Assembly: GCA_965209055.1 (NCBI GenBank)
Contig: OZ242374.1
Coordinates: 3,712,001-3,776,000 of the forward strand
Source of the DNA: Acidobacteriota bacterium
Lineage (GTDB): Bacteria; Acidobacteriota; UBA6911; RPQK01; JAJDTT01
Direction: 5' to 3'
DNA length: 64,000 nucleotides
In this document: positions 4,430-40,115 of the stretch, piece after piece
Layout of the letters: the number at the start of each line of letters is the position of its first letter
Position numbering within the stretch: position 1 is the stretch's first letter
Position numbers and translations under genes: made by a program
Notes under the pieces: model-generated
Database searches by the model: none
What the model was told of the DNA's origin: nothing
Seen by the model: only the letters and a program-made list of their open reading frames with translations

Positions 4430-4479
4430 TTCGAAATTGAGCCGCGGCCGTCCGGACGGGCTCGGCGGCATTGGGAGAA

Positions 4480-7400
4480 ATGACGATGGAGTTGAATCTG
4501 TGTCTCCGAACGGCTGGACGTTTCGTGGCGGGAGCAATCCTCATCCCGCTCCTGGGATGCGGGGGTGAAGAGGATACGCGGGATCCGCTCCGGAAGATCC
4601 TGGACATCTCCCGTGACGAAGCGGCCCTGGCCGAGTATCTCCAGCCGATCCCGCCTAAGGAGCCGCAGGAAGCCCTGGAATCGTTCGAGGCCGTCGATGG
4701 ATTCCGCATGGAGATGGTGGCCCATGAGCCTCTCGTGAACGACCCGGTAGCGGCCGCATTCGACGAGAACGGCCGCCTCTACGTGGCCGAGATGCGGGAC
4801 TACCCGTACCAGCCGGGACCGGGCGAGAAGCCCATCGGAGTGGTCCGCCTGCTGGAGGACACCGACGGCGACGGCACGCTGGACCGGAGCCACATCTTTG
4901 CCGACGAGTTGTTGTGGCCCACCGGAGTGACGGTCTGGAACGGAGGGGTCTACGTCACCGCTCCTCCCGACATCTGGTACCTCAAGGACACCGACGGCGA
5001 CAACAAGGCCGACATCCGGAAGAAGGTCTACTCGGGCTTCGGACACCAGAACGAGCAGCAGATGATGAACAACATCATCATGGGAGTGGACCATTGGATC
5101 TATGGGATCGCCTCCGGAAACGCCGGCGAGATCCGGTCTCTGGAGAATCCGGACGCTCCTCCGGTCTCCCTGGGCGCCCGGGATTACCGTTTCGATCCCG
5201 TGAGCGGCCGGTTCGAGACCACCACCCAGACCTTCCAGTTCGGGCACGCCTTCGACGAATGGTTCAACCGCTTCGTCTGCAACCAGGGGATGCCGGGACG
5301 CCACGTGGTGTTGCCGGCCCGCTACCTGGAACGGAACCCCCACCTTTTCTACGATTTGCACCGGTGGCTGGGACCGGGCGCCAACCAGGTGAAGCCCCTG
5401 GTCCAGGGGCAGACCCGCCTCTACAAGATCAGCCCCGTGGAGCGCTGGCGCACCATTCGGCAGGCTCGGCGCATCTTCGCCGGGTCGTACTCCCGAAGCG
5501 CCGGCGTCGGCCACGACTACCTGACGGCCGGCTCGGGGGTGACCATGTACACGGGCCACGCCTACCCGGAGAAGTATCGCGGCAGCTACTTCATGGGCGC
5601 CAACACGGGCAACCTGATCCACCGCCGGGTTCTCATCGACGACGGAGTCAGCTTCCGCTCCGAGCGGGGGGAGGGGGAGAACTCGGAGTTCGTCCGTTCC
5701 ACCGACACCTGGTTCCGGCCGGTCAATGCGGTCAACGCGCCGGACGGAACCGTCTACTTTCTGGACATGTCCCGGGAGCTCATCGAGGCGACCCATGTCC
5801 CCGAACGCGTGATGAAGCACCTGGATTTCACCAGCGGAAGAGACCGGGGACGCATCTATCGCCTGGCGCCCCCGGGGTTCGTGTCGCCGCCTCCGCCCCG
5901 GTTGGGCGAGGCGACGATCGAGGAGTTGGTCTCCCATCTCGAGCACGACGGGGGCTGGTGGCGGGCGACGGCCCACCGGTTGATCCGCGAGCGGGAGGAC
6001 CGGTCGGCGGCGCCCCTCCTGCGGCGGCTTCTCAGAGAAAGTTCTCGTCCCCTGGCCCGGATGCATGCTCTCTGGTCCTTGCAGGGGCTCGGCTCACTCC
6101 GGGACCGGGATCTGCTGCGGGGTCTCGGGGATGCCGAAGCCGGGGTCCGGGTCCATGCCGTCCGACTGGCCGAATCCCGTTTGAATCGTTCCCGCGCCCT
6201 GTTCCGGAAGGTGTCGGATCTGGCCCAGGACCCAGAAATCCGGGTCCGGTTCCAGGTTGCCCTGAGTCTGGGCGAGGTGAGGGGGCAGCGGTCCCTTCCC
6301 GCACTGGTCCGGATCTCGCGGATGGATACCGGCGACTTCTGGGTCCGGAATGCCGTCCTGAGTTCCTGTGCCGATTTTCCCCACCAATTGTTCGCCCGGT
6401 TGGCGAACGAGGAAACGTTTCTCGCCCAACCCGAATCGGTCCAGTGGTTGTCCCGGCTCGCGCGGGCCGTGGGTGCCCGGAACCGCGCACGGGAGTTGAG
6501 GAGGGTCCTGGGCGCCTTGGCCGCCAATCCGGTGCTGGCCGCCAGACCGTCCGCACGGCAGGAGATCATCATCGGCATGGCCGAGGGACTGGCCCATTCA
6601 GGCGGCTCGCTTTTGGGTCTGCGAAGACTCCCCGCCTCTGCCCTTTCCATGATCACTGCCCACATGGAGCGCGCGGGCAAGATCGCCGCTGACGAGGCCG
6701 CTTCTTTGGAGGACCGGCTCCAATCCATCCGGCTGCTTCGCCATGATCGGCTGAATCGGGTGAAGCCCGCACTGGCCTCCCTGGTGGATCCCCTGCAGCC
6801 CCAGGATCTCCAAATCGCGGCGATCGACGCCTTGGCGGGCTTCGACAGCCCGGAAATACCCGGCATCCTCCTCAAGGACTGGATGACGCATTCTCCCCGA
6901 ACCCGGAGCAAGATCCTGGAGACCCTCTTCGCTCGACAGGAATGGACCGAGGGCCTGCTTCAGGCGGTCTCGGAGGAGTCGGTGGCAGCCAACCAGATCG
7001 ACGCCAAGCGCCGGGAGCTCCTCCTGAACCATGAAGACGAGTCCATCCGGGAGCAGGCGGTCCGGCTCCTGGGGTCCGAGCAACTGGAGTCTCGTCAGGA
7101 AGCGCTGGCCGATTTTCAGGCCAGCTTGTCCCTGACCGGCGACCACAAACGGGGCGAGGCCGTCTACCGGCGGGAATGCATCAAGTGCCACCGGCTCTCA
7201 TCCCGCGAACATCCCATCGGACCGAACCTGATCCGCGGCACGGAGAAGGACCCCGAGTCGCTCCTGGTGAACATCCTGGATCCCAACCGTTTCGTGGAGC
7301 CCCAATACCTGCAGTACGTGGCGACGGACCTGAAGGGCGGGCTCTACACCGGCCTGCTCCGGGATGAGACGGCGACGAGCGTGACGCTGGTGGAGGGGGA

Positions 7401-7653
7401 CGACCTGAGCAACACCCTGTTGCGGAAGAACATCAAGGAGATCCGGGCCACGACCAATTCCCTCATGCCCGAGGGTCTGGAAGAAAACATCAACCACCAG
7501 GAGATGGCCGACCTGATCACCTTCATCCTCAAGTATCAGTACGAGGTCGGCACGGAGAGCGCCGGCATCGGTTACGGGGAGGAGGTCTACGAGGAGATGA
7601 TGCTCCACCCGTCACTGAGGCCGGAGAATCAGGCTCAGCAGAAGGGGGATTAG
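4480..7653 (+). CDS. PVC-type membrane-bound dehydrogenase-like protein with HEAT repeats and C-terminal c-type heme (CxxCH)
   Basis: EPLVNDPVAAAFDENGRLYVAEMRDYP propeller start, WFRPVN, HEAT-like middle, CIKCH...IGPNL and SLMPEGLE heme domain; lipobox-like LLGC. Confidence 0.88.
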   Translation: MTMELNLCLRTAGRFVAGAILIPLLGCGGEEDTRDPLRKILDISRDEAALAEYLQPIPPKEPQEALESFEAVDGFRMEMVAHEPLVNDPVAAAFDENGRLYVAEMRDYPYQPGPGEKPIGVVRLLEDTDGDGTLDRSHIFADELLWPTGVTVWNGGVYVTAPPDIWYLKDTDGDNKADIRKKVYSGFGHQNEQQMMNNIIMGVDHWIYGIASGNAGEIRSLENPDAPPVSLGARDYRFDPVSGRFETTTQTFQFGHAFDEWFNRFVCNQGMPGRHVVLPARYLERNPHLFYDLHRWLGPGANQVKPLVQGQTRLYKISPVERWRTIRQARRIFAGSYSRSAGVGHDYLTAGSGVTMYTGHAYPEKYRGSYFMGANTGNLIHRRVLIDDGVSFRSERGEGENSEFVRSTDTWFRPVNAVNAPDGTVYFLDMSRELIEATHVPERVMKHLDFTSGRDRGRIYRLAPPGFVSPPPPRLGEATIEELVSHLEHDGGWWRATAHRLIREREDRSAAPLLRRLLRESSRPLARMHALWSLQGLGSLRDRDLLRGLGDAEAGVRVHAVRLAESRLNRSRALFRKVSDLAQDPEIRVRFQVALSLGEVRGQRSLPALVRISRMDTGDFWVRNAVLSSCADFPHQLFARLANEETFLAQPESVQWLSRLARAVGARNRARELRRVLGALAANPVLAARPSARQEIIIGMAEGLAHSGGSLLGLRRLPASALSMITAHMERAGKIAADEAASLEDRLQSIRLLRHDRLNRVKPALASLVDPLQPQDLQIAAIDALAGFDSPEIPGILLKDWMTHSPRTRSKILETLFARQEWTEGLLQAVSEESVAANQIDAKRRELLLNHEDESIREQAVRLLGSEQLESRQEALADFQASLSLTGDHKRGEAVYRRECIKCHRLSSREHPIGPNLIRGTEKDPESLLVNILDPNRFVEPQYLQYVATDLKGGLYTGLLRDETATSVTLVEGDDLSNTLLRKNIKEIRATTNSLMPEGLEENINHQEMADLITFILKYQYEVGTESAGIGYGEEVYEEMMLHPSLRPENQAQQKGD

Positions 7654-7689
7654 CTGGTTTCAGTGTAGGTGTAGAAATGAATACGTGAG

Positions 7690-8259
7690 GTGAGCACGCT
7701 GTATCTTGATGGTATTCACAGCATCACAACTATCGTATTCATAGTCGATATTATCGCACTGTTTCTGCTGCTGGTCGGAATCGTCTGGTCTGTGGTTTGG
7801 CCCGACCGCCGGATCTGGCCTCCGCCGGGACGCTGGTCCTGGCAGTATGTCCTGACTTGGATCTGCTACTGCGCGGTCTCAGGGTGCAACTTGGCCCTGC
7901 TGCTTCTTGACTGGAATTCCTGGATCTTTGCGGGCGATCTCCGGTTCCTGGTCGGCATCCCTCTGGCTTTGCTGTTAGGACTGCTGGCGTTCTGGGGAGT
8001 CGTCACCATCGGCTGGAAGAACTCGTCGGGTGTGAGGCACGGCTTCATTTCCTTCGGACCCTACCGGTTTACCCGAAACCCGCAATACCTCGGCGACAAG
8101 GTGTTCTTCCAGCGCCTGAGCATCGTCGCCAACTCGGAACTTCTGTGGATCACTCATGCGCTGCTCGCCCTGGTGTTCATCATCGCGCCCCTGAGTGAGG
8201 AGGTGTGGCTGAAGGAGGAATACGAGCGGTATCGGCGAAACACGCCGCGATTCTTGTGA
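7690..8259 (+). CDS. Isoprenylcysteine carboxyl methyltransferase / PEMT-family membrane protein
   Basis: Several TM segments; GPYRFTRNPQYLG and EE..L...Y..Y...TPRF motifs. Confidence 0.75.
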   Translation: MSTLYLDGIHSITTIVFIVDIIALFLLLVGIVWSVVWPDRRIWPPPGRWSWQYVLTWICYCAVSGCNLALLLLDWNSWIFAGDLRFLVGIPLALLLGLLAFWGVVTIGWKNSSGVRHGFISFGPYRFTRNPQYLGDKVFFQRLSIVANSELLWITHALLALVFIIAPLSEEVWLKEEYERYRRNTPRFL

Positions 8260-8317
8260 GCTCGGCTGCGTCCGGTTCTTTTGGGATGACCAGGTAGGCC
8301 CAGGTTAGCTGGCTAGA

Positions 8318-8385
8318 GGCCGCGCGAGGAGGCCGCGAGGAGGCCGCGGTAGGGGACAGTCACCTCTTCTCAGCACCTCCTCTCT
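8318..8385 (+). repeat. GGGGACAG-core site A with stutter repeats
   Basis: GAGGCCGC x3 then AGGGGACAGTCACCTC at 8351-8366. Confidence 0.7.
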
Positions 8386-8394
8386 CGCGCTTCT

Positions 8395-8415
8395 TGTTAT
8401 CATGATCTGATAACA
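8395..8415. promoter_or_regulatory. Candidate operator of the TA pair
   Basis: Perfect inverted repeat TGTTATCA-N5-TGATAACA immediately upstream of the 8423 start. Confidence 0.65.
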
Positions 8416-8422
8416 TCAGTCG

Positions 8423-8785
8423 ATGACGACGCCGGACCGAGACCCCGGACTGGACACGCTGCTCGACCTTCACGGCGAGACGCTGTTTGTGAACGACACG
8501 GGGCATTGGGTGAAGTTCGTTGTAATACGGACCGAAGTAACACCCGAACGACCACACGGCCTCCGCTACTCGTTAACGCTGCACGCGCCGGATGGCGCCA
8601 GATTGGTTGGATTCGACAATGCACATCCGGTTAGGGAGCGGCCAGGCCCGGGCAGGCGTCGACGGACAGAGCGCGACCATCGGCATCGGCTGCGGAAGAT
8701 CCGGTCCTATGCATACAGAGACGCGGCAACTCTCCTGGAGGATTTCTGGAAAGAAGTGGACCAAGTTCTTGGAGAAGGAGGCTAG
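8423..8785 (+). CDS. DUF6516 / TumE-like putative toxin
   Basis: RPHGLRYSLTLH..G.RLVGFDNAH and DHRH...LLEDFW motifs, upstream of an HTH gene. Confidence 0.75.
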   Translation: MTTPDRDPGLDTLLDLHGETLFVNDTGHWVKFVVIRTEVTPERPHGLRYSLTLHAPDGARLVGFDNAHPVRERPGPGRRRRTERDHRHRLRKIRSYAYRDAATLLEDFWKEVDQVLGEGG

Positions 8786-8790
8786 ATTCC

Positions 8791-9159
8791 ATGAAGACAC
8801 TGAAGATCGGGATCGCCGGCTACGACCAGATGAAGGCGCGCACCCTGGCGATTGCTCGCGGCGACCACACGCCCGCGAAGGGTGAGCCGAAGGTGTGGTT
8901 CACCTCGATCGAGAGCTTTGCGAAGTTGCTTTCCGAGCACAACCGGCATCTTCTGGAGTTGATTGCCCGTGAGAAACCGCGTTCGCTCACGGAACTCGCT
9001 GAGATAGCCGGGCGAAGCAAGTCGAACCTTTCTCGGACCCTGAAGATGATGTCTCAATACGGGCTCGTGGAATTGAGACACGGAGAACGTGGGAGGCTGG
9101 TACCTCGGGTGCCATACGACCACGTGAGGCTCGATGTCTCGTTGACTTCCACGCGGTGA
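8791..9159 (+). CDS. HTH putative antitoxin / transcriptional regulator (HVO_A0114-like)
   Basis: WFTSIESFAKLLSEHN, SLTELAEIAGRSKSNLSRTLK HTH; 5 bp after the preceding gene. Confidence 0.8.
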   Translation: MKTLKIGIAGYDQMKARTLAIARGDHTPAKGEPKVWFTSIESFAKLLSEHNRHLLELIAREKPRSLTELAEIAGRSKSNLSRTLKMMSQYGLVELRHGERGRLVPRVPYDHVRLDVSLTSTR

Positions 9160-9172
9160 AGCACGCGCGCGC

Positions 9173-9210
9173 GGAAGGGACAGTCACCTCCATCTAGTGT
9201 CACCTCCGTC
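9173..9210 (+). repeat. GGGACAG-core site B
   Basis: GGAAGGGACAGTCACCTCC followed by a second GTCACCTCC. Confidence 0.7.
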
Positions 9211-9253
9211 TCGCCGCGCGAGTTCCCAAAGCTGCCGCGGCCACCGGTAACGG

Positions 9254-10483
9254 CTAGCTGATGGGTCCGAAATCGGGAACCTTCAGCCAGTCTCCACCCT
9301 TCAGAGCTGATTGGAAGCCGACGATTCCGGGCGCCGTATAGGCCAGGGCCTGATGGACATCGACCGACGGGGGGCGCTGCTCCAGACAGGCCGAGACGAA
9401 CTCATGAATGATGAAGGGATGGGAGCCTCCGTGCCCCTCAACGTTCCGCAGTGACGGCGGCAGCTCTGCCGAGTGGTCCGCCTGCAACAGTTCGGGTTCC
9501 GAATCGGGAAGGGTCACGTAAGCGGAGGGGCGCATGCCCTTCCACCTCTCGAACAACGACATTTCGGTCCCAAAATAGTCCGCTCCTTCACGGCCGGGAG
9601 CTGCACTCCACCAGTGGATGTTGATTCGGGAGGAGTTTCCACCCGAGGTTTTGAAGAAGAAGGTGGTGTTTATGAACGGGTTACCGTACCGGTTCTCCTT
9701 GTAGAACGGGTGGTCCAGCGGCGTTCCGACCGCCGCGACTTCAACCAGGCTCTCGCCGGTCACATAGATGACCGGACCGCTGGCGTGGGTGATATAGAGG
9801 CCTTGGGCGTTGCCATACCGCCAGGTCCGCCTGCCCTCGTGAAAGTACATCCGGTCCAGGTACTCCGGCATCTCCCCCTTCGCCAGGTAGGTGCCGTGGT
9901 CATGGATGTAATCTCCCTGGGTGAAGTAGATTCTCCCGAACTTGCCTTCCTGTCTCAGTCTGCGGGCCGTCATGGTAGCTGGATGAAAGCAACTGGTTTC
10001 GGCCATCATGTAGATCTGACCGGTTTTTTTGACGGCCTCCAGAAGCTGCTGGCACTGTTCCAGGCTGATGGCGGCCGGAACCGCACAGATGACATGCCGG
10101 CCGGACTCCATGACCTCCACGCAGTGGGGAACGTGACGGGGCGCCCCGGTGAAGATGGCAACGGCATCCACTGTGGGGTCCTTGAGCAGGGCGCGGAAGT
10201 CGGCATGGGCATTGGAGCACGCGAACCGCTCTTCCAGCCTTTTTCGGCGGTCCTCCCTGAGATCGGCGACCGCGGTCACCTTGCAGTTGGGATGCCGATG
10301 CCAGGGAAACGCGGCGCCGAATCCGCCGCCCACCACACCGATCCGCAACTGCTTGCCGGCATCGATCGGCCTGTATCGTTGTCCGAATAGCGAAGCCGTC
10401 AATGCAGTCGTACCGGCTGCCTTCGCACTTTGAAAAAACACTCGGCGGCTGATGGACGGGGATTCCGCCTCATATCTCACCAT
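9254..10483 (-). CDS. Gfo/Idh/MocA-family oxidoreductase, Tat-like N-terminus
   Basis: IGVVGGGFG, HVICAVPAA, YMMAETS, GHGGSHPFIIHEF; SRRVFF motif; start taken at ATG 10483. Confidence 0.88.
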   Translation of the reverse strand: MVRYEAESPSISRRVFFQSAKAAGTTALTASLFGQRYRPIDAGKQLRIGVVGGGFGAAFPWHRHPNCKVTAVADLREDRRKRLEERFACSNAHADFRALLKDPTVDAVAIFTGAPRHVPHCVEVMESGRHVICAVPAAISLEQCQQLLEAVKKTGQIYMMAETSCFHPATMTARRLRQEGKFGRIYFTQGDYIHDHGTYLAKGEMPEYLDRMYFHEGRRTWRYGNAQGLYITHASGPVIYVTGESLVEVAAVGTPLDHPFYKENRYGNPFINTTFFFKTSGGNSSRINIHWWSAAPGREGADYFGTEMSLFERWKGMRPSAYVTLPDSEPELLQADHSAELPPSLRNVEGHGGSHPFIIHEFVSACLEQRPPSVDVHQALAYTAPGIVGFQSALKGGDWLKVPDFGPIS

Positions 10484-10593
10484 GATGGCCGTCCTTTCCG
10501 GGGGTTGGGTATCGGGTGGATCGTAGAGGACACTGAATCGGGCGGTCAAGGCGGGGTGAATCCGGTTTGAATGGGTTAAAGACACTTGGCGGT

Positions 10594-10635
10594 GTGGAGA
10601 TGGGGACAGGTGGAGAAGGGGACAGGCGCCTCCCC
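10594..10635 (+). repeat. GGGGACAG-core site C (16-bp tandem)
   Basis: GTGGAGATGGGGACAG then GTGGAGAAGGGGACAG, followed by GCGCCTCC. Confidence 0.7.
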
Positions 10636-10661
10636 GGAGTCGGTTACCTCCCCGCCGGTGT

Positions 10662-11819
10662 CTAACCGCTCGCTACAGACTCCAGGAACTCCCGGGCGAT
10701 TTCCTCGTAACGGTGCGGGTCCATGTTCCAGGTCCTCCCGTGGGTGGCGCCGGGGACCTTCACGCACCGGACCAGATCCGGGCGGGACCGGGCGAGCAGT
10801 CGGCTGGTTCGGAGTGGAACGAGGGTGTCCGCGTCTCCATGGAAAACCAACGTGGGAGCATGCAGGTGTCCCGTGTCGCGGAGGTAGTTCAACTTCCTCC
10901 ACGGAATCCCGAAACGCGCTCGAGCCAGGGTCTTCGCCGGGTGGTAGAAGATTCCGGGATACCCTTGGTTGCGGGCGGCGAATTTCAAGGTGGCTTCCAG
11001 GTCCAGGACCGGCGAGTCCAGAATGACTCCACGGACGGATCGTGCCAAATCAGATTGCCGCAGGAAGCTCATGACCACGCACCCGCCCATGCTGTAACCG
11101 GCCAGGATTAGCTTTTCGGCCCCGGACTCCAAGGCATGGCGGGCGGCTCCTTCCAGATCCTCCCACTCCGTGAGTCCGTACCAGTGGAGACCGTCCGGGG
11201 CGGGCTCGGCCTCCGGATCGTTTCGATACGAGATGACCAGGCCGGGAAATCCCAGGTCCGCCGCCACCTTCAGCAGGGGGTAGGAACGGAGAGCGCCGCT
11301 GGGCGGCGCGGCCCGCTTTCCGTGGACGAAGATGACCCAGGTGGAGCGGGAACCGGGGACCAACCAGGCGGGGAATCGGCCGAGTGGAGAGTGGAATTGC
11401 AGCGGTTGGACCGGAAACCCGAACGCATCGCCCGGGTCGTCGGGAAAGGCGAAACCGGTGAGCCTCACGCGGGTGCCGGGCGCCAGATCTCCATGCAGAA
11501 GACGGAGGCGTCGAGTGACCTGCCGATTCCTCAGATTCAGGATCCTTCCGGCTTGGGCGTAACCTCCCGGCCAACGCAGACCCCAGAGGCCCTCCTGACG
11601 CCAGCGGCGGCTCCGGCCTGTCTCCGGCAGGACTCCCAAAGTCACGCGATCCGACTCGACCTCCAACACCTCGAGGGGGCGCGCGCCGCCCCGGGCCGCC
11701 GGCTCCAGGACCCGGCGGCGGATCCGGTTGGAAAGGTGCCATGCTCCGGCCAGCCAGACCGCGGCCAGGATGACTCCAATGACGGCCGGCCACGCCGCGT
11801 CGGTCAGTGGGGTGTCCAT
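10662..11819 (-). CDS. Membrane-anchored alpha/beta hydrolase
   Basis: N-terminal TM helix, IFVHG, GYSMGG nucleophile, HGDAD..VP, GATH; start at MDTPLT. Confidence 0.85.
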   Translation of the reverse strand: MDTPLTDAAWPAVIGVILAAVWLAGAWHLSNRIRRRVLEPAARGGARPLEVLEVESDRVTLGVLPETGRSRRWRQEGLWGLRWPGGYAQAGRILNLRNRQVTRRLRLLHGDLAPGTRVRLTGFAFPDDPGDAFGFPVQPLQFHSPLGRFPAWLVPGSRSTWVIFVHGKRAAPPSGALRSYPLLKVAADLGFPGLVISYRNDPEAEPAPDGLHWYGLTEWEDLEGAARHALESGAEKLILAGYSMGGCVVMSFLRQSDLARSVRGVILDSPVLDLEATLKFAARNQGYPGIFYHPAKTLARARFGIPWRKLNYLRDTGHLHAPTLVFHGDADTLVPLRTSRLLARSRPDLVRCVKVPGATHGRTWNMDPHRYEEIAREFLESVASG

Positions 11820-11872
11820 CCGTTTCGATGGGTCGGAAGGGGGCCGGGAACTGCGTCCCGCGTCACCGGGCG

Positions 11873-12334
11873 TTACTCCGCCAGTTCCCGGTTCAGCATC
11901 TTGCGGTGTTTGGCGGACAGGGTTCGGCGCCGGCGGCGGTTCTTCGGCCCCGGATCGGGCTCTTTCCGGCTTTTGAGGAAGACGGCGACCAACACGCCTC
12001 CGCCGGTCAGGACGACGAAGGGGAGGACCCAGGCCACAAGGTTGAATCCTTCGGGCTTGGGAGCGCCATAGATTCTGGGACCGTATTCTTTTTCGTACTC
12101 GGCAAAGACCTGCGCCTCCGTCATCCCGTTGGCCAACAGTTGCAGGATGTGGGCTCTGATCTGTGGAGCGTGGCCGCATTCGTCTCCGCAATCCTGTACC
12201 AGCTTCGGGCATTCACAGAGGCACTTCATGTTCGCCTCGATCCGCTTCAGGGTTTCCTTGTCGGAGCCCAGCGTACCTGAGACGGAAAGGGCAAGGACGG
12301 CGGGGAAAAGGAACACGGCGAACATCGATATCAT
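11873..12334 (-). CDS. ccmH: Cytochrome c-type biogenesis protein CcmH-like
   Basis: 3' end of the long ORF: signal peptide, IEANMKCLCEC, C..A..IR, YGPRIYGAP, AWVLP TM helix. Confidence 0.7.
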   Translation of the reverse strand: MISMFAVFLFPAVLALSVSGTLGSDKETLKRIEANMKCLCECPKLVQDCGDECGHAPQIRAHILQLLANGMTEAQVFAEYEKEYGPRIYGAPKPEGFNLVAWVLPFVVLTGGGVLVAVFLKSRKEPDPGPKNRRRRRTLSAKHRKMLNRELAE

Positions 12335-18462: not shown

Positions 18463-18702
18463 TCAACCCCCGGCCATGTTGCCGACGACCATGAACGCCT
18501 CACGGACCGTCGCCACTTCTTCCGGCAACAGTGCGTCCGGCGGCTCGTGCGACCGATCCTGTCCGCAGGCAAAGAACCGGAGATAGGCCCGGCGGCGTCG
18601 CGTCGCGTGGTCCCGGATCGTGCCGCGCAGGACGGGGTAGTCTGCCTCCAGCGCGACGAGCACGGCGCGTTGAGTCGCATGCACCTCGAGATCGACCTCC
18701 AT
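18463..18702 (-). pseudogene. MoaD/ThiS-family ubiquitin-like protein, apparently 5'-damaged
   Basis: [26 protein letters not shown]-terminal AGG. The usual N-terminal strand and helix are not in frame. Confidence 0.6.
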
Positions 18703-18766: not shown

Positions 18767-18867
18767 GAGAGGAGGGAGAGGAGGTGACTGTCCCCTTTTC
18801 CAGAGGAGGTGACTGTCCCCTTTTCCCAGTCCCCTTTTCCCAATCCCCTTTTCCCAATCGGTCCCCT
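18767..18867 (-). repeat. GGGGACAG-core site D with tandem and decaying repeats
   Basis: 25-bp AGAGGAGGTGACTGTCCCCTTTTCC x2 (18777-18826), then two 14-bp CA(G/A)TCCCCTTTTCC partial copies. Confidence 0.85.
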
Positions 18868-37891: not shown

Positions 37892-37958
37892 TGGAGTAGT
37901 CTCTGGAAAGGGACAGTCTGGAGTACTCTCTGGAGTAGTCTCTGGAAAGGGACAGTCT
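37892..37958 (+). repeat. GGGACAG-core site E (28-bp duplicate)
   Basis: TGGAGTAGTCTCTGGAAAGGGACAGTCT at 37892 and 37931, with a partial GGAGTACTCTC between them. Confidence 0.85.
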
Positions 37959-38212
37959 CGATTCCCGGCGGGAAGCGAATCTACGGCATTCTCGAGTTCC
38001 GTTTCTTTACGATTGTGGGGGATCAGAGAAAGCTTGTCAGGCACGGCCGCCGGGATTGGACCACCTCGACACTATCCTCGTTCAACCCAGCTTACCCAGG
38101 TCTCCCGAACCGTCAGAAAATAAGGGAGAGTCCAGGGTCTATTCGGTGGATCCTGTGATCCGGATGGTTCGGTGCCGCAGTGGCCCAATCGGCGGCCGGC
38201 GATCAGACAAGT

Positions 38213-39148
38213 CTACGGGACCAACGCGTGCGAGCGCTGCTCCCGCAGGGAAAACAGCACTCCGCCCAGTTGGGGGATTGGGTGTCGGCGACGTCGATAC
38301 CGGCCTTGCTGCCGATACGCCTCCAGCAACTGCGCCACCTTCTCGGCTGGCCCCACGGCCAAACCGTCCGTCAGGAATCGCAAACGCCGGCGGAACGCTC
38401 CGGCTCGGGCGAATCCACGCCGCTCCTCCTGCTGGAGGATCCACTGCGGGATCGCGGCTTGGTTGTCTTTGGTGGGGACGGCTCCCCGATAGTACAAGCG
38501 AGCCCGGTAACCACCGTACACGTCGGTTCCGGGAACCGACGGAAACAGTTCCTCCAGGGGAATCAGGTCCTCGTCCTTGCCCAACCGTCGCCAGCGGGCC
38601 GAGCCCCACTTCCACTGCTCCGGCCGGTTGGCCAGTCCCGCCCGCACGGCGTTGAGTTCCACGTACAGGACGGCGTCCTGGACGGCTTCCATTCCCAAGA
38701 GTTCCGAGTTCTTGAAACGATCACTCCAAAAATGGCCTCGCCGGCCGAACTGGCGGTTGAACCACCGGGCATAGAGTCCGTTGACGTCCGCCATCAGCCT
38801 CGACACGTCGAACAGACGCCGATTGAGAGCCTCCCACTGGACGTCGGTCCAATCGGCGGTCTTCTTCTCGGCCTGCTCGCCATAGAGCTTGTGGGTGCTC
38901 TTTTTCAACTCCTTGCGGGACAACGACCGGGGCTTCTCGAAATGGACGATGAGGTGGTAGTGATTGCCCATGATCTGGAAGGCGGCCAGACGGCAGCGGT
39001 AGGCATTGACGTAAAACACCATCATGTCCAGGAATTTGCGACGGGCCTGGGGGTCTTCCAAGGGGAACCAATCGGGTCGGCCGGCGACTCGATTGGTGAG
39101 GTGATAGAAGGCGGCTTCGGTGCTCTTGTGCCGTGCGGTTCGGGGCAT
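38213..39148 (-). CDS. HUH Y1 tyrosine transposase, REP-associated (RAYT/TnpA-like)
   Basis: MPRTAR...YHLTNR, MGNHYHL (HUH), GHFWSDRFK, YVELNAVRAGL (catalytic Tyr), WKWGS; no tnpB nearby. Confidence 0.9.
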   Translation of the reverse strand: MPRTARHKSTEAAFYHLTNRVAGRPDWFPLEDPQARRKFLDMMVFYVNAYRCRLAAFQIMGNHYHLIVHFEKPRSLSRKELKKSTHKLYGEQAEKKTADWTDVQWEALNRRLFDVSRLMADVNGLYARWFNRQFGRRGHFWSDRFKNSELLGMEAVQDAVLYVELNAVRAGLANRPEQWKWGSARWRRLGKDEDLIPLEELFPSVPGTDVYGGYRARLYYRGAVPTKDNQAAIPQWILQQEERRGFARAGAFRRRLRFLTDGLAVGPAEKVAQLLEAYRQQGRYRRRRHPIPQLGGVLFSLREQRSHALVP

Positions 39149-39246: not shown

Positions 39247-39386
39247 CAAGAAAATCAGCATACGGAGATACAGACAGCATACGGAGATACAGACTGTCCC
39301 CTTCCAGCAAGAAAATCAGCATACGGAGATACAGACCGGAGATACAGACTGTCCCCTTTCGGAACGGTCCCCTTCCGGAACGGAAT
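39247..39386 (-). repeat. GGGGACAG-core site F with nested duplications
   Basis: CAAGAAAATCAGCATACGGAGATACAGAC x2, GGAGATACAGAC x4, GACTGTCCCCTT x2, partial GTCCCCTTCCGGAACGG. Confidence 0.85.
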
Positions 39387-39999: not shown

Positions 40000-40115
40000 G
40001 CAGGGAAACAGACTGTCCCGTTCCGCGCGCGGTCCCCTTCCGCGTTCCTCGCAGAAACAGACCGCAGAAACAGACTGTCCCCTTCCGGAATGGCCGTCCC
40101 CTTCCGGAATGGCCG
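40000..40115 (-). repeat. GGG(G)ACAG-core site G with nested duplications
   Basis: GAAACAGAC x3, ACAGACTGTCCC x2, GTCCCCTTCCGGAATGGCCG x2. Confidence 0.85.

What the first reader, a model, noticed from the sequence alone, without database searches (positions are those of the whole stretch)
7654..10635. Mini array of unrelated genes separated by three same-orientation core sites
Seen: PEMT-like gene, site A, TA pair, site B, Gfo/Idh/MocA gene, site C. Sites A and B share AGGG(G)ACAGTCACCTC and enclose the TA pair plus its operator with little spare DNA. The Gfo gene has its own candidate promoter (TTGACC-N18-TACGAT on -, near 10521-10550). Established: TA cassettes are typical stabilisers of integron arrays. 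Inference: sequentially acquired cassettes.
Basis: partly seen in the sequence, partly recalled or inferred. Interest (0 to 1): 0.7.

Follow-up and report, generated by a model that had tools for sequence, protein, structure and literature searches.

The report
Transposase-linked repeats punctuating a reshuffled array
The three short sites are copies of a genome-wide hairpin repeat that also flanks a single-strand-DNA transposase gene, and in all nine related genomes they mark many of the seams of a gene cluster whose pieces have been reordered, duplicated and cut, likely through imprecise cutting and rejoining by that transposase rather than by an integron.

Summary
Sites A, B and a degenerate C belong to a dispersed imperfect palindrome (core GGGGACAGTCACC; 14 exact copies in the genome, 0.24 expected). 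It fits the GGGGWSAS motif of TIRYT Y1/HUH transposases. No integron integrase or attC box was found. The orthologous locus is a variable array in 9 of 9 genus genomes, with 59 of 60 sites co-oriented. The TumE-type toxin-antitoxin unit lies before the Gfo gene here but after a Gfo copy in 5 relatives, and one relative has the Gfo unit twice. Eleven fragments of neighbouring genes abut sites, and one low-depth metagenome contig lacks the TA unit and keeps one site. The repeat variant tracks the transposase lineage across 31 genomes. Best reading: a TIRYT acting in trans nicks near the hairpins and moves or copies adjacent DNA (inferred). REP transposases were already predicted to capture genes this way, and the scan noted the same repeat or class elsewhere in this and other genomes. 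New variant of a known kind; interest 0.5.

The parts
4471..7653 (+). Conserved left flank: DUF7133/HEAT/cytochrome c gene; fragments of its 3' part recur inside the array in two relatives
7690..8259 (+). PEMT-family methyltransferase; no site on its left; at this locus in 1 of 9 genomes, partly present or deleted in close strains
8344..8373 (+). Site A: TIR/REP-like imperfect palindrome (core 8353-8364), with short stutter repeats on both sides
   Evidence: an 11-nt stutter at 8323 is absent in strains X1 and X24
8395..8415 (.). Perfect 8-bp-arm palindrome, likely operator of the TA pair
   Evidence: conserved in 6 of 6 TA units; function inferred
8423..8785 (+). TumE-family type II toxin
   Evidence: PF20126 E=1e-9; family described in PMC10584680
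8791..9159 (+). HTH protein (HVO_A0114 family), likely cognate antitoxin
   Evidence: PF25212 E=4.7e-21; pairing inferred from position
9168..9215 (+). Site B (core 9177-9188) with a duplicated right half-site at about 9198-9213
9254..10480 (-). Gfo/Idh/MocA oxidoreductase; old resident of the array, 88-94% aa identity in 8 of 8 genus relatives
10520..10549 (-). Candidate sigma70-type promoter of the Gfo gene, inside the conserved unit
   Evidence: activity untested
10601..10640 (+). Site C (degenerate core 10619-10630) with a duplicated left half-site
10662..11819 (-). Conserved right flank: alpha/beta hydrolase; its 3' end is duplicated into the array in three relatives
18776..18860 (-). Two further exact sites with stuttered left arms, outside the array
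38213..39148 (-). TIRYT-type Y1/HUH transposase (HYH and YVELNA motifs); one of 6 intact copies in the genome; candidate enzyme acting in trans
   Evidence: (NF047646 E=4e-14, below cut-off)
37905..37965 (+). Inward-pointing GGGACAGTCT repeats downstream of the transposase gene
39285..39360 (-). Inward-pointing GGGGACAGTCT repeats upstream of the transposase gene (two more at about 40005-40085)

Best explanation
The three sites are copies of a genome-wide hairpin repeat of the TIRYT (GGGGWSAS) class, and they mark many of the seams of an array reshuffled across the genus, likely because a Y1/HUH transposase encoded elsewhere nicks single-stranded DNA near them and rejoins it imprecisely. Shown: repeat family, co-orientation, reordering, duplication, gene fragments at sites, co-variation of repeat and transposase. 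Inferred by analogy with TnpA-REP: the enzyme binds the folded top strand and cuts at variable distance on either side, possibly at CG. It would then release or copy a segment carrying a site plus adjacent DNA and insert it beside another site on the same strand. That would yield co-oriented arrays, stuttered half-sites, whole-gene units such as the TA pair, and truncated pieces of flanking genes. The array holds old residents (Gfo, probably the TA pair) and lineage-specific newcomers.
For: Repeat family: (77 distinct PWM sites; 39 of 45 neighbouring pairs under 5 kb co-oriented). Motif fits the published TIRYT consensus. Related repeats flank TIRYT genes pointing inward, and the exact array-type site flanks them in G023, G002 and G004. 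Co-variation in 31 genomes: AAGGGGACAGTCAC has 7-56 copies in the 9 genus genomes and 17 in G023 (other family, TIRYT 76% identical) and 0-1 in the other 21. AAGGGGACAGAC has 5-22 copies in the 6 sister-genus genomes and 5 in G017, whose best TIRYT is 43-57% identical, and 0-2 elsewhere. Array: 59 of 60 sites on one strand; TA order swapped; Gfo unit doubled in G007; 11 gene fragments with an end within about 65 nt of a site. Homology ends near sites: 33 of 87 left ends (3.9 expected) and 25 of 87 right ends (5.3 expected). A 697-bp site-to-site unit is tandemly triplicated in G002. Strain contig X23 lacks the TA unit and keeps one site; X24 has a site 30 nt before a PEMT 3' remnant. TnpA-REP cuts 5' or 3' of its repeat, also at a distance, and was predicted to sequester genes or fragments (PMC8266576, PMC3333891).
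Against: No biochemical or in vivo evidence for any TIRYT was found in the papers read. No circle junction or TA-less form was seen in the four runs of the probable source sample (contigs only). No TIRYT gene was found within any of the nine arrays; the nearest is 28 kb away here. In this genome the repeats flanking TIRYT genes mostly read GGGACAGTCT or GGGACAGTCC, not GTCACC. More than half of the homology ends are not at sites, the ends are not independent, and the distance windows were chosen after seeing the data. The left limit of variability carries no site. The CG junction signal is weak: 15 of 41 against 20% background, p about 0.01, non-independent. Co-variation rests on few independent lineages. 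Sister-genus repeats cluster near the transposase in mixed orientation. The arrays also hold IS elements, a group II intron RT and a tyrosine recombinase, which could cause some rearrangements. No clear replichore bias (47 of 77).
Confidence: 0.6

Rival explanations
1. The sites are selfish miniature elements (solo TIR/REP-like) spread by the TIRYT. They pile up in dispensable regions and cause local deletions and duplications as by-products. Cargo arrives by ordinary horizontal transfer and IS activity, and the sites do not carry genes between loci.
For: Gfo, and probably TA, are inherited vertically at one locus. The captured fragments all come from within a few kb. No array unit of a relative was found site-bounded at both ends elsewhere in G000. 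Many IS elements sit in the arrays. Order swap can arise by duplication then loss; G007 (Gfo-TA...Gfo) looks like the intermediate.
Against: Whole functional units with their own operator or promoter start right after a site in every copy. Strict co-orientation (59 of 60). G007's second Gfo unit is closer to G005 (93.7%) than to its own first copy (92.2%), which hints at import (weak support 0.71). TA and defence genes fill the intervals in other arrays.
Confidence: 0.25
2. An unidentified site-specific tyrosine recombinase recombines site with site, as an integron integrase does, excising and reinserting circular cassettes.
For: Dyad-symmetric, co-oriented sites; several units run site to site (Gfo 1383-1395 bp in 5 copies; triplicated 697-bp unit). 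The genome has 58 PF00589 matches.
Against: No IntI (best 78.8 bits against a cut-off of 265). 0 of 60 sites lie within R''/R' boxes. A tyrosine recombinase was seen in only 1 of 8 relatives' arrays (47 of 79 called ORFs scanned), and its frame runs across a site. Fragment ends at non-site positions and the non-hybrid linker in X23 do not fit conservative recombination. The site tracks the TIRYT lineage.
Confidence: 0.08
3. Host homologous recombination or replication slippage between the short direct repeats deletes and duplicates the intervals; no dedicated enzyme is needed after the repeats have spread.
For: Direct orientation favours deletion and duplication; the tandem triplication starts at a site arm; stutters resemble slippage.
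Against: The perfect match between sites is only about 12-20 bp, short for RecA (own knowledge). It cannot join a site to the middle of a neighbouring gene that has no site, as seen for the cytochrome c and Gfo fragments.
Confidence: 0.07

Closest known systems
TIRtron/TIRYT and TIR repeat families (Di Nocera et al. 2013, PMC3733652; Quentin et al. 2018, 10.1101/279083)
   Same: Y1 transposase gene flanked by inverted repeats with GGGGWSAS; a moderately abundant dispersed family of the same repeat, partly self-complementary, in clusters.
   Different: The passages read describe repeats and transposases only, not co-oriented arrays that bound reshuffled genes. The protein here has YVELNA in 4 of 6 copies instead of Y---NP, is about 310 aa and multi-copy, which resembles the description of subclass 2.3 more than 2.1; no tree was made.
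REP/BIME with TnpA-REP (RAYT) (Ton-Hoang et al. 2012, PMC3333891; Corneloup et al. 2021, PMC8266576)
   Same: Short imperfect hairpin with a cognate HUH enzyme acting in trans; cleavage on either side at variable distance; predicted insertion near an existing repeat and capture of genes or fragments.
   Different: No GTAG foot; sites are single and co-oriented, not inverted REP/iREP doublets; tens of copies, concentrated in accessory regions.
Integrons and CALINs (attC arrays)
   Same: Co-oriented dyad sites between genes, TA modules, order shuffling, arrays without a neighbouring enzyme gene.
   Different: No IntI, no R''/R' boxes, sites about 25-30 bp, junctions imprecise, genes in both orientations with their own promoters, flanking core genes get captured.
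IS91/ISCR and Helitron one-ended gene capture
   Same: HUH chemistry with one fixed end and one variable end, capturing adjacent DNA (named in PMC3333891).
   Different: No IS91-type transposase travels with the units; DNA from both sides of the sites is taken.

Membership tests
TIRtron/TIRYT repeat family | GGGGWSAS motif in the repeat | tested here: met
   GGGGACAG in sites A and C and in the consensus; B has one G fewer
TIRtron/TIRYT repeat family | Y1/HUH transposase gene flanked by inverted copies of the repeat | tested here: met
   window 38213-39148 with inward-pointing repeats on both sides; both-sided in 3 of 6 G000 copies and in most relatives' loci examined
TIRtron/TIRYT repeat family | Intact HUH and catalytic Tyr motifs | tested here: met
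   HYH/HFH and YVELN(A/P) in 6 of 6 copies, no stops
TIRtron/TIRYT repeat family | Assignment to TnpA-Y1 subclass 2.1 (C-terminal HTH) or 2.3 | not tested
   only descriptions compared; NF047646 hit is below its cut-off; no PDB relative by sequence
TIRtron/TIRYT repeat family | The transposase binds and cleaves the repeat | not testable with these tools
   only co-variation shown
Integron / CALIN | Integron integrase IntI in the genome | tested here: not met
   TIGR02249 best 78.8 bits, cut-off 265; a CALIN may lack it
Integron / CALIN | attC sites with R'' (RYYYAAC) and R' (GTTRRRY) boxes 40-140 nt apart (definition recalled) | tested here: not met
   0 of 60 sites; IntegronFinder itself was not available
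Integron / CALIN | Precise, conservative unit boundaries | tested here: not met
   gene fragments and arbitrary ends; non-hybrid linker in X23
Integron / CALIN | Circular cassette intermediates | tested here: inconclusive
   no such joint in 8 runs, all held as contigs
Canonical GTAG-REP/BIME/REPIN | GTAG foot and inverted doublets | tested here: not met
   consensus has no GTAG; neighbours are co-oriented in 39 of 45 pairs

The most novel reading that the evidence does not exclude
TIRYT transposases and their short hairpin sites form an integrase-free counterpart of integrons: a single-strand DNA system, acting in trans at about ten arrays per genome, that captures, stores, duplicates and reorders toxin-antitoxin, defence and metabolic genes, cutting preferentially at CG.
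Probability: 0.35. Interest if true: 0.8.

Novelty: new variant of a known kind. Interest (0 to 1): 0.5.

Why it matters
Class 2 Y1 (TnpA-REP-like) genes occur in about a quarter of bacterial species, yet in the papers read the TIRYT branch has no tested substrate or role. This locus supplies a cognate site, a lineage-specific variant pair as a specificity control, natural junctions and a small test unit (the 825-bp TA interval). If the transposase moves genes this way, it is a further route of accessory-gene and defence-island assembly, and the motif would serve as a marker for mining such genes. If the sites are only passengers, the finding is an ordinary repeat in a variable region.

Tried and rejected
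Integron/attC: rejected. Chance repeat: rejected for A and B; the 2-mismatch window count is at chance level. A locus-private att site: rejected, the motif is genome-wide. A dedicated recombinase in the arrays: none recurs among the 47 of 79 called ORFs of relatives (repeated Gfo, TA and some duplicate ORFs left out) or the 53 ORFs scanned from nine other G000 clusters; the ORF caller was my own codon model and misses some AT-rich genes. Pfam Y1_Tnp found only 1 of the 6 TIRYT copies plus one unrelated RAYT; a profile search found no further subfamily. Search for array units relocated elsewhere in G000: none site-bounded at both ends. TA unit elsewhere in G001, G004, G008: only 66-73% matches or none. 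Circle or A-B deletion joint in source-sample runs X19-X22: none, but contigs drop rare forms. Leading/lagging bias: 47 of 77, with ori and ter only estimated from GC skew, not informative. DNA folding gives weak hairpins (-3.6 to -10.3 kcal/mol), often not centred on the core for the G000 sites; no shuffle control was run. PDB sequence search of the transposase: nothing significant. Literature searches for TIRYT/RAYT-bounded gene arrays listed no such paper; only listings were seen, and most subscription papers are not covered.
Full report
Observation. Pfam names the genes as PEMT, TumE toxin, HVO_A0114-type HTH and Gfo/Idh/MocA, between a DUF7133/cytochrome c gene and an alpha/beta hydrolase. 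TumE-TumA is a validated type II TA superfamily (PMC10584680, passages read); this pair was not tested. The operator-like palindrome (8395-8415) and the promoter-like motif (10520-10549, minus strand) are present.

The site is a genome-wide repeat. The window is G000:C1:3712001-3776000. GGGGACAGTCACC occurs 14 times against 0.24 expected. A weight matrix built from 49 sites of relatives gives the consensus CGGGAGAAGGGGACAGTCACCTCCTCTCG, an imperfect palindrome. It finds 87 hits at score 14 or more against 6 in the reversed genome. These are 77 distinct sites, 60 with a neighbour within 5 kb, and 39 of 45 such neighbouring pairs are co-oriented. Nine other clusters that I fetched hold many TA pairs (HigBA, ParE, VapBC, MazEF), Fic, GmrSD, type III restriction and OLD-like genes, IS elements, and duplicates of flanking genes (53 ORFs scanned). 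I did not test this enrichment against background.

It is not an integron. The best match to the IntI model scores 78.8 bits against a cut-off of 265. None of 60 sites lies within an R''/R' box pair (box definition recalled).

Link to a Y1/HUH transposase. GGGGACAG fits the GGGGWSAS consensus of repeats flanking TIRYT genes (PMC3733652, passages read; 10.1101/279083, passages and the Class 2 section read; figures and supplements not seen). The window encodes such a protein at 38213-39148 (NF047646 E=4e-14, below cut-off), flanked by inward-pointing GGGACAGTCT repeats. G000 has 6 intact copies. Across 31 genomes the repeat variant follows the transposase. AAGGGGACAGTCAC has 7-56 copies in the 9 genus genomes and 17 in G023, a genome of another family whose transposase is 76% identical and is flanked by this exact site; the other 21 genomes have 0-1. 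AAGGGGACAGAC has 5-22 copies in the 6 sister-genus genomes and 5 in G017, whose transposases are 43-57% identical and flanked by that variant; the rest have 0-2, with reversed-pattern controls up to 3. Kin are not independent, so this amounts to a few events. In G000 itself the flanking repeats mostly differ from the array sites after GGGACAGTC.

The orthologous locus. In all 8 same-genus genomes the stretch after the cytochrome c gene is a variable array with 3-13 sites; with G000 that makes 60 sites, 59 best read on one strand and one ambiguous. G008's contig ends inside Gfo, and G005's right flank was not reached in 80 kb. Gfo is present in 9 of 9 (88-94% aa), twice in G007, and 10 of 10 full copies have a site 59-106 nt beyond the stop codon. 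The TA pair is present in 6 of 9, with a site 53-70 nt before the toxin start in 6 of 6. It follows a Gfo copy in the five relatives but precedes Gfo in G000. A scoring site follows Gfo in 7 of 9 assessable copies and TA in 3 of 6. PEMT is at the locus only in G000 and has no left site. Eleven fragments of array or flanking genes have an end within about 65 nt of a site: four of the cytochrome c gene, three of the hydrolase and four of the Gfo unit. One is a 96%-identical copy of the terminal site plus about 260 nt in G004. In G007 the antitoxin's last codons are replaced by a site arm. Homology ends fall near sites in 33 of 87 left ends (3.9 expected) and 25 of 87 right ends (5.3 expected); these ends are not independent and the windows were set after inspection. 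At another locus G002 carries a 697-bp unit three times in tandem, each copy starting at a site. Relatives' cargo includes BrnT, BREX-like ATPases, T5orf172, helicase pieces, a subtilase, IS elements and a group II intron RT (47 of 79 called ORFs scanned).

The Gfo tree matches the core-gene tree, apart from the second G007 copy, which lies nearest G005 with weak support. TA identities from G000 (89-92%) are close to core identities (89-90%). So both look like old residents that changed neighbours, not recent arrivals. No unit of a relative's array was found site-bounded at both ends elsewhere in G000.

Strain-level data. Four runs of one sample hold the stretch and show no circle or A-B deletion joint, but they are contigs. 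In other samples, one X23 contig (depth 2.65, 38 nt on the short side) joins 8258 to 9207 through 39 other letters containing a single site variant. This is a TA-less allele that is not an exact A-by-B hybrid. X24 has a site 30 nt before a PEMT 3' remnant. X1, from a sponge metagenome, keeps the G000 order; the 12 indels listed for that call (5 more not shown) all lie within about 45 nt of A, B or C. X1 also has a second contig in which other DNA is joined at site C. These are single contigs and count as supporting hints.

Mechanism. TnpA-REP binds a folded single strand, cuts at a dinucleotide 5' or 3' of the repeat, also at a distance, and performs strand transfer (PMC8266576, passages). Its authors proposed insertion near an existing repeat and capture of entire genes or fragments (PMC3333891, passages; its supplementary figure S7 not seen). 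The array shows the products such a process would leave: one strand, stuttered half-sites, whole units and fragments from both flanks. Junctions carry CG in 15 of 41 cases against 20% background (p about 0.01), a weak lead for the cut site. I put this model at 0.6, the passenger-repeat model at 0.25, a hidden recombinase at 0.08 and host recombination at 0.07. Every enzymatic step is inferred.

Novelty. The repeat class and the enzyme family are known, and gene capture was predicted for their REP cousins. Five literature searches listed no description of co-oriented TIRYT-site arrays that reorder genes. Earlier notes of this scan report the same repeat at other loci of this genome and similar cases in other genomes, some judged ordinary. 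I had reached the TIRYT reading before consulting them. Verdict: real feature, new variant of a known kind, interest 0.5.

Noticed in passing
G000 genome-wide; one copy at C1:3710529-3710984, about 1 kb before the window: 58 tyrosine-recombinase matches, about 27 of them near-equal in score and length, which suggests an expanded mobile family.
   Followed up: no
window 18776-18860: Two exact sites on the minus strand with stuttered left arms, next to a short ORF (18463-18702) and an SDR gene; G004 has an internal deletion of that SDR.
   Followed up: partly
L068:4900-8950 (G002): Array with a 697-bp HigA-like unit triplicated at over 99% identity, bracketed by two copies of another small gene.
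   Followed up: partly
L072:7223-12335 (G000:C1 about 2.06 Mb): A DUF1501 gene, a C-terminal fragment of it and a second similar ORF alternate with TA pairs between co-oriented sites: the same flank-capture pattern in this genome.
   Followed up: partly
L030:6691-7878 (G005): A tyrosine recombinase frame runs across the first site into a captured cytochrome c fragment, giving a chimeric C-terminus.
   Followed up: no
L064-L065 (G023:C1:1.45-1.49 Mb): Several clusters of co-oriented sites with little or no called cargo surround the transposase gene within 20 kb; the transposase is 76% identical to this genus's, which suggests recent transfer between families.
   Followed up: partly
L001:1308-2230 (G000:C1:1142808-1143728): A second, unrelated RAYT-like gene with different flanking repeats, adjacent to a tyrosine recombinase.
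   Followed up: no
window 7770-7948 in run X1: A 177-nt deletion inside PEMT with 8-nt microhomology in a close strain.
   Followed up: no
window 6500-12000 in runs X19-X21: Contig depth halves from left to right across the array in three of four runs of one sample, perhaps because co-occurring strains diverge here.
   Followed up: no
G000 genome-wide, e.g. C1:213943-215469: A multi-copy gene family with about 700-bp repeats; a member is fused to a cytochrome c fragment in the arrays of G005 and G007.
   Followed up: no
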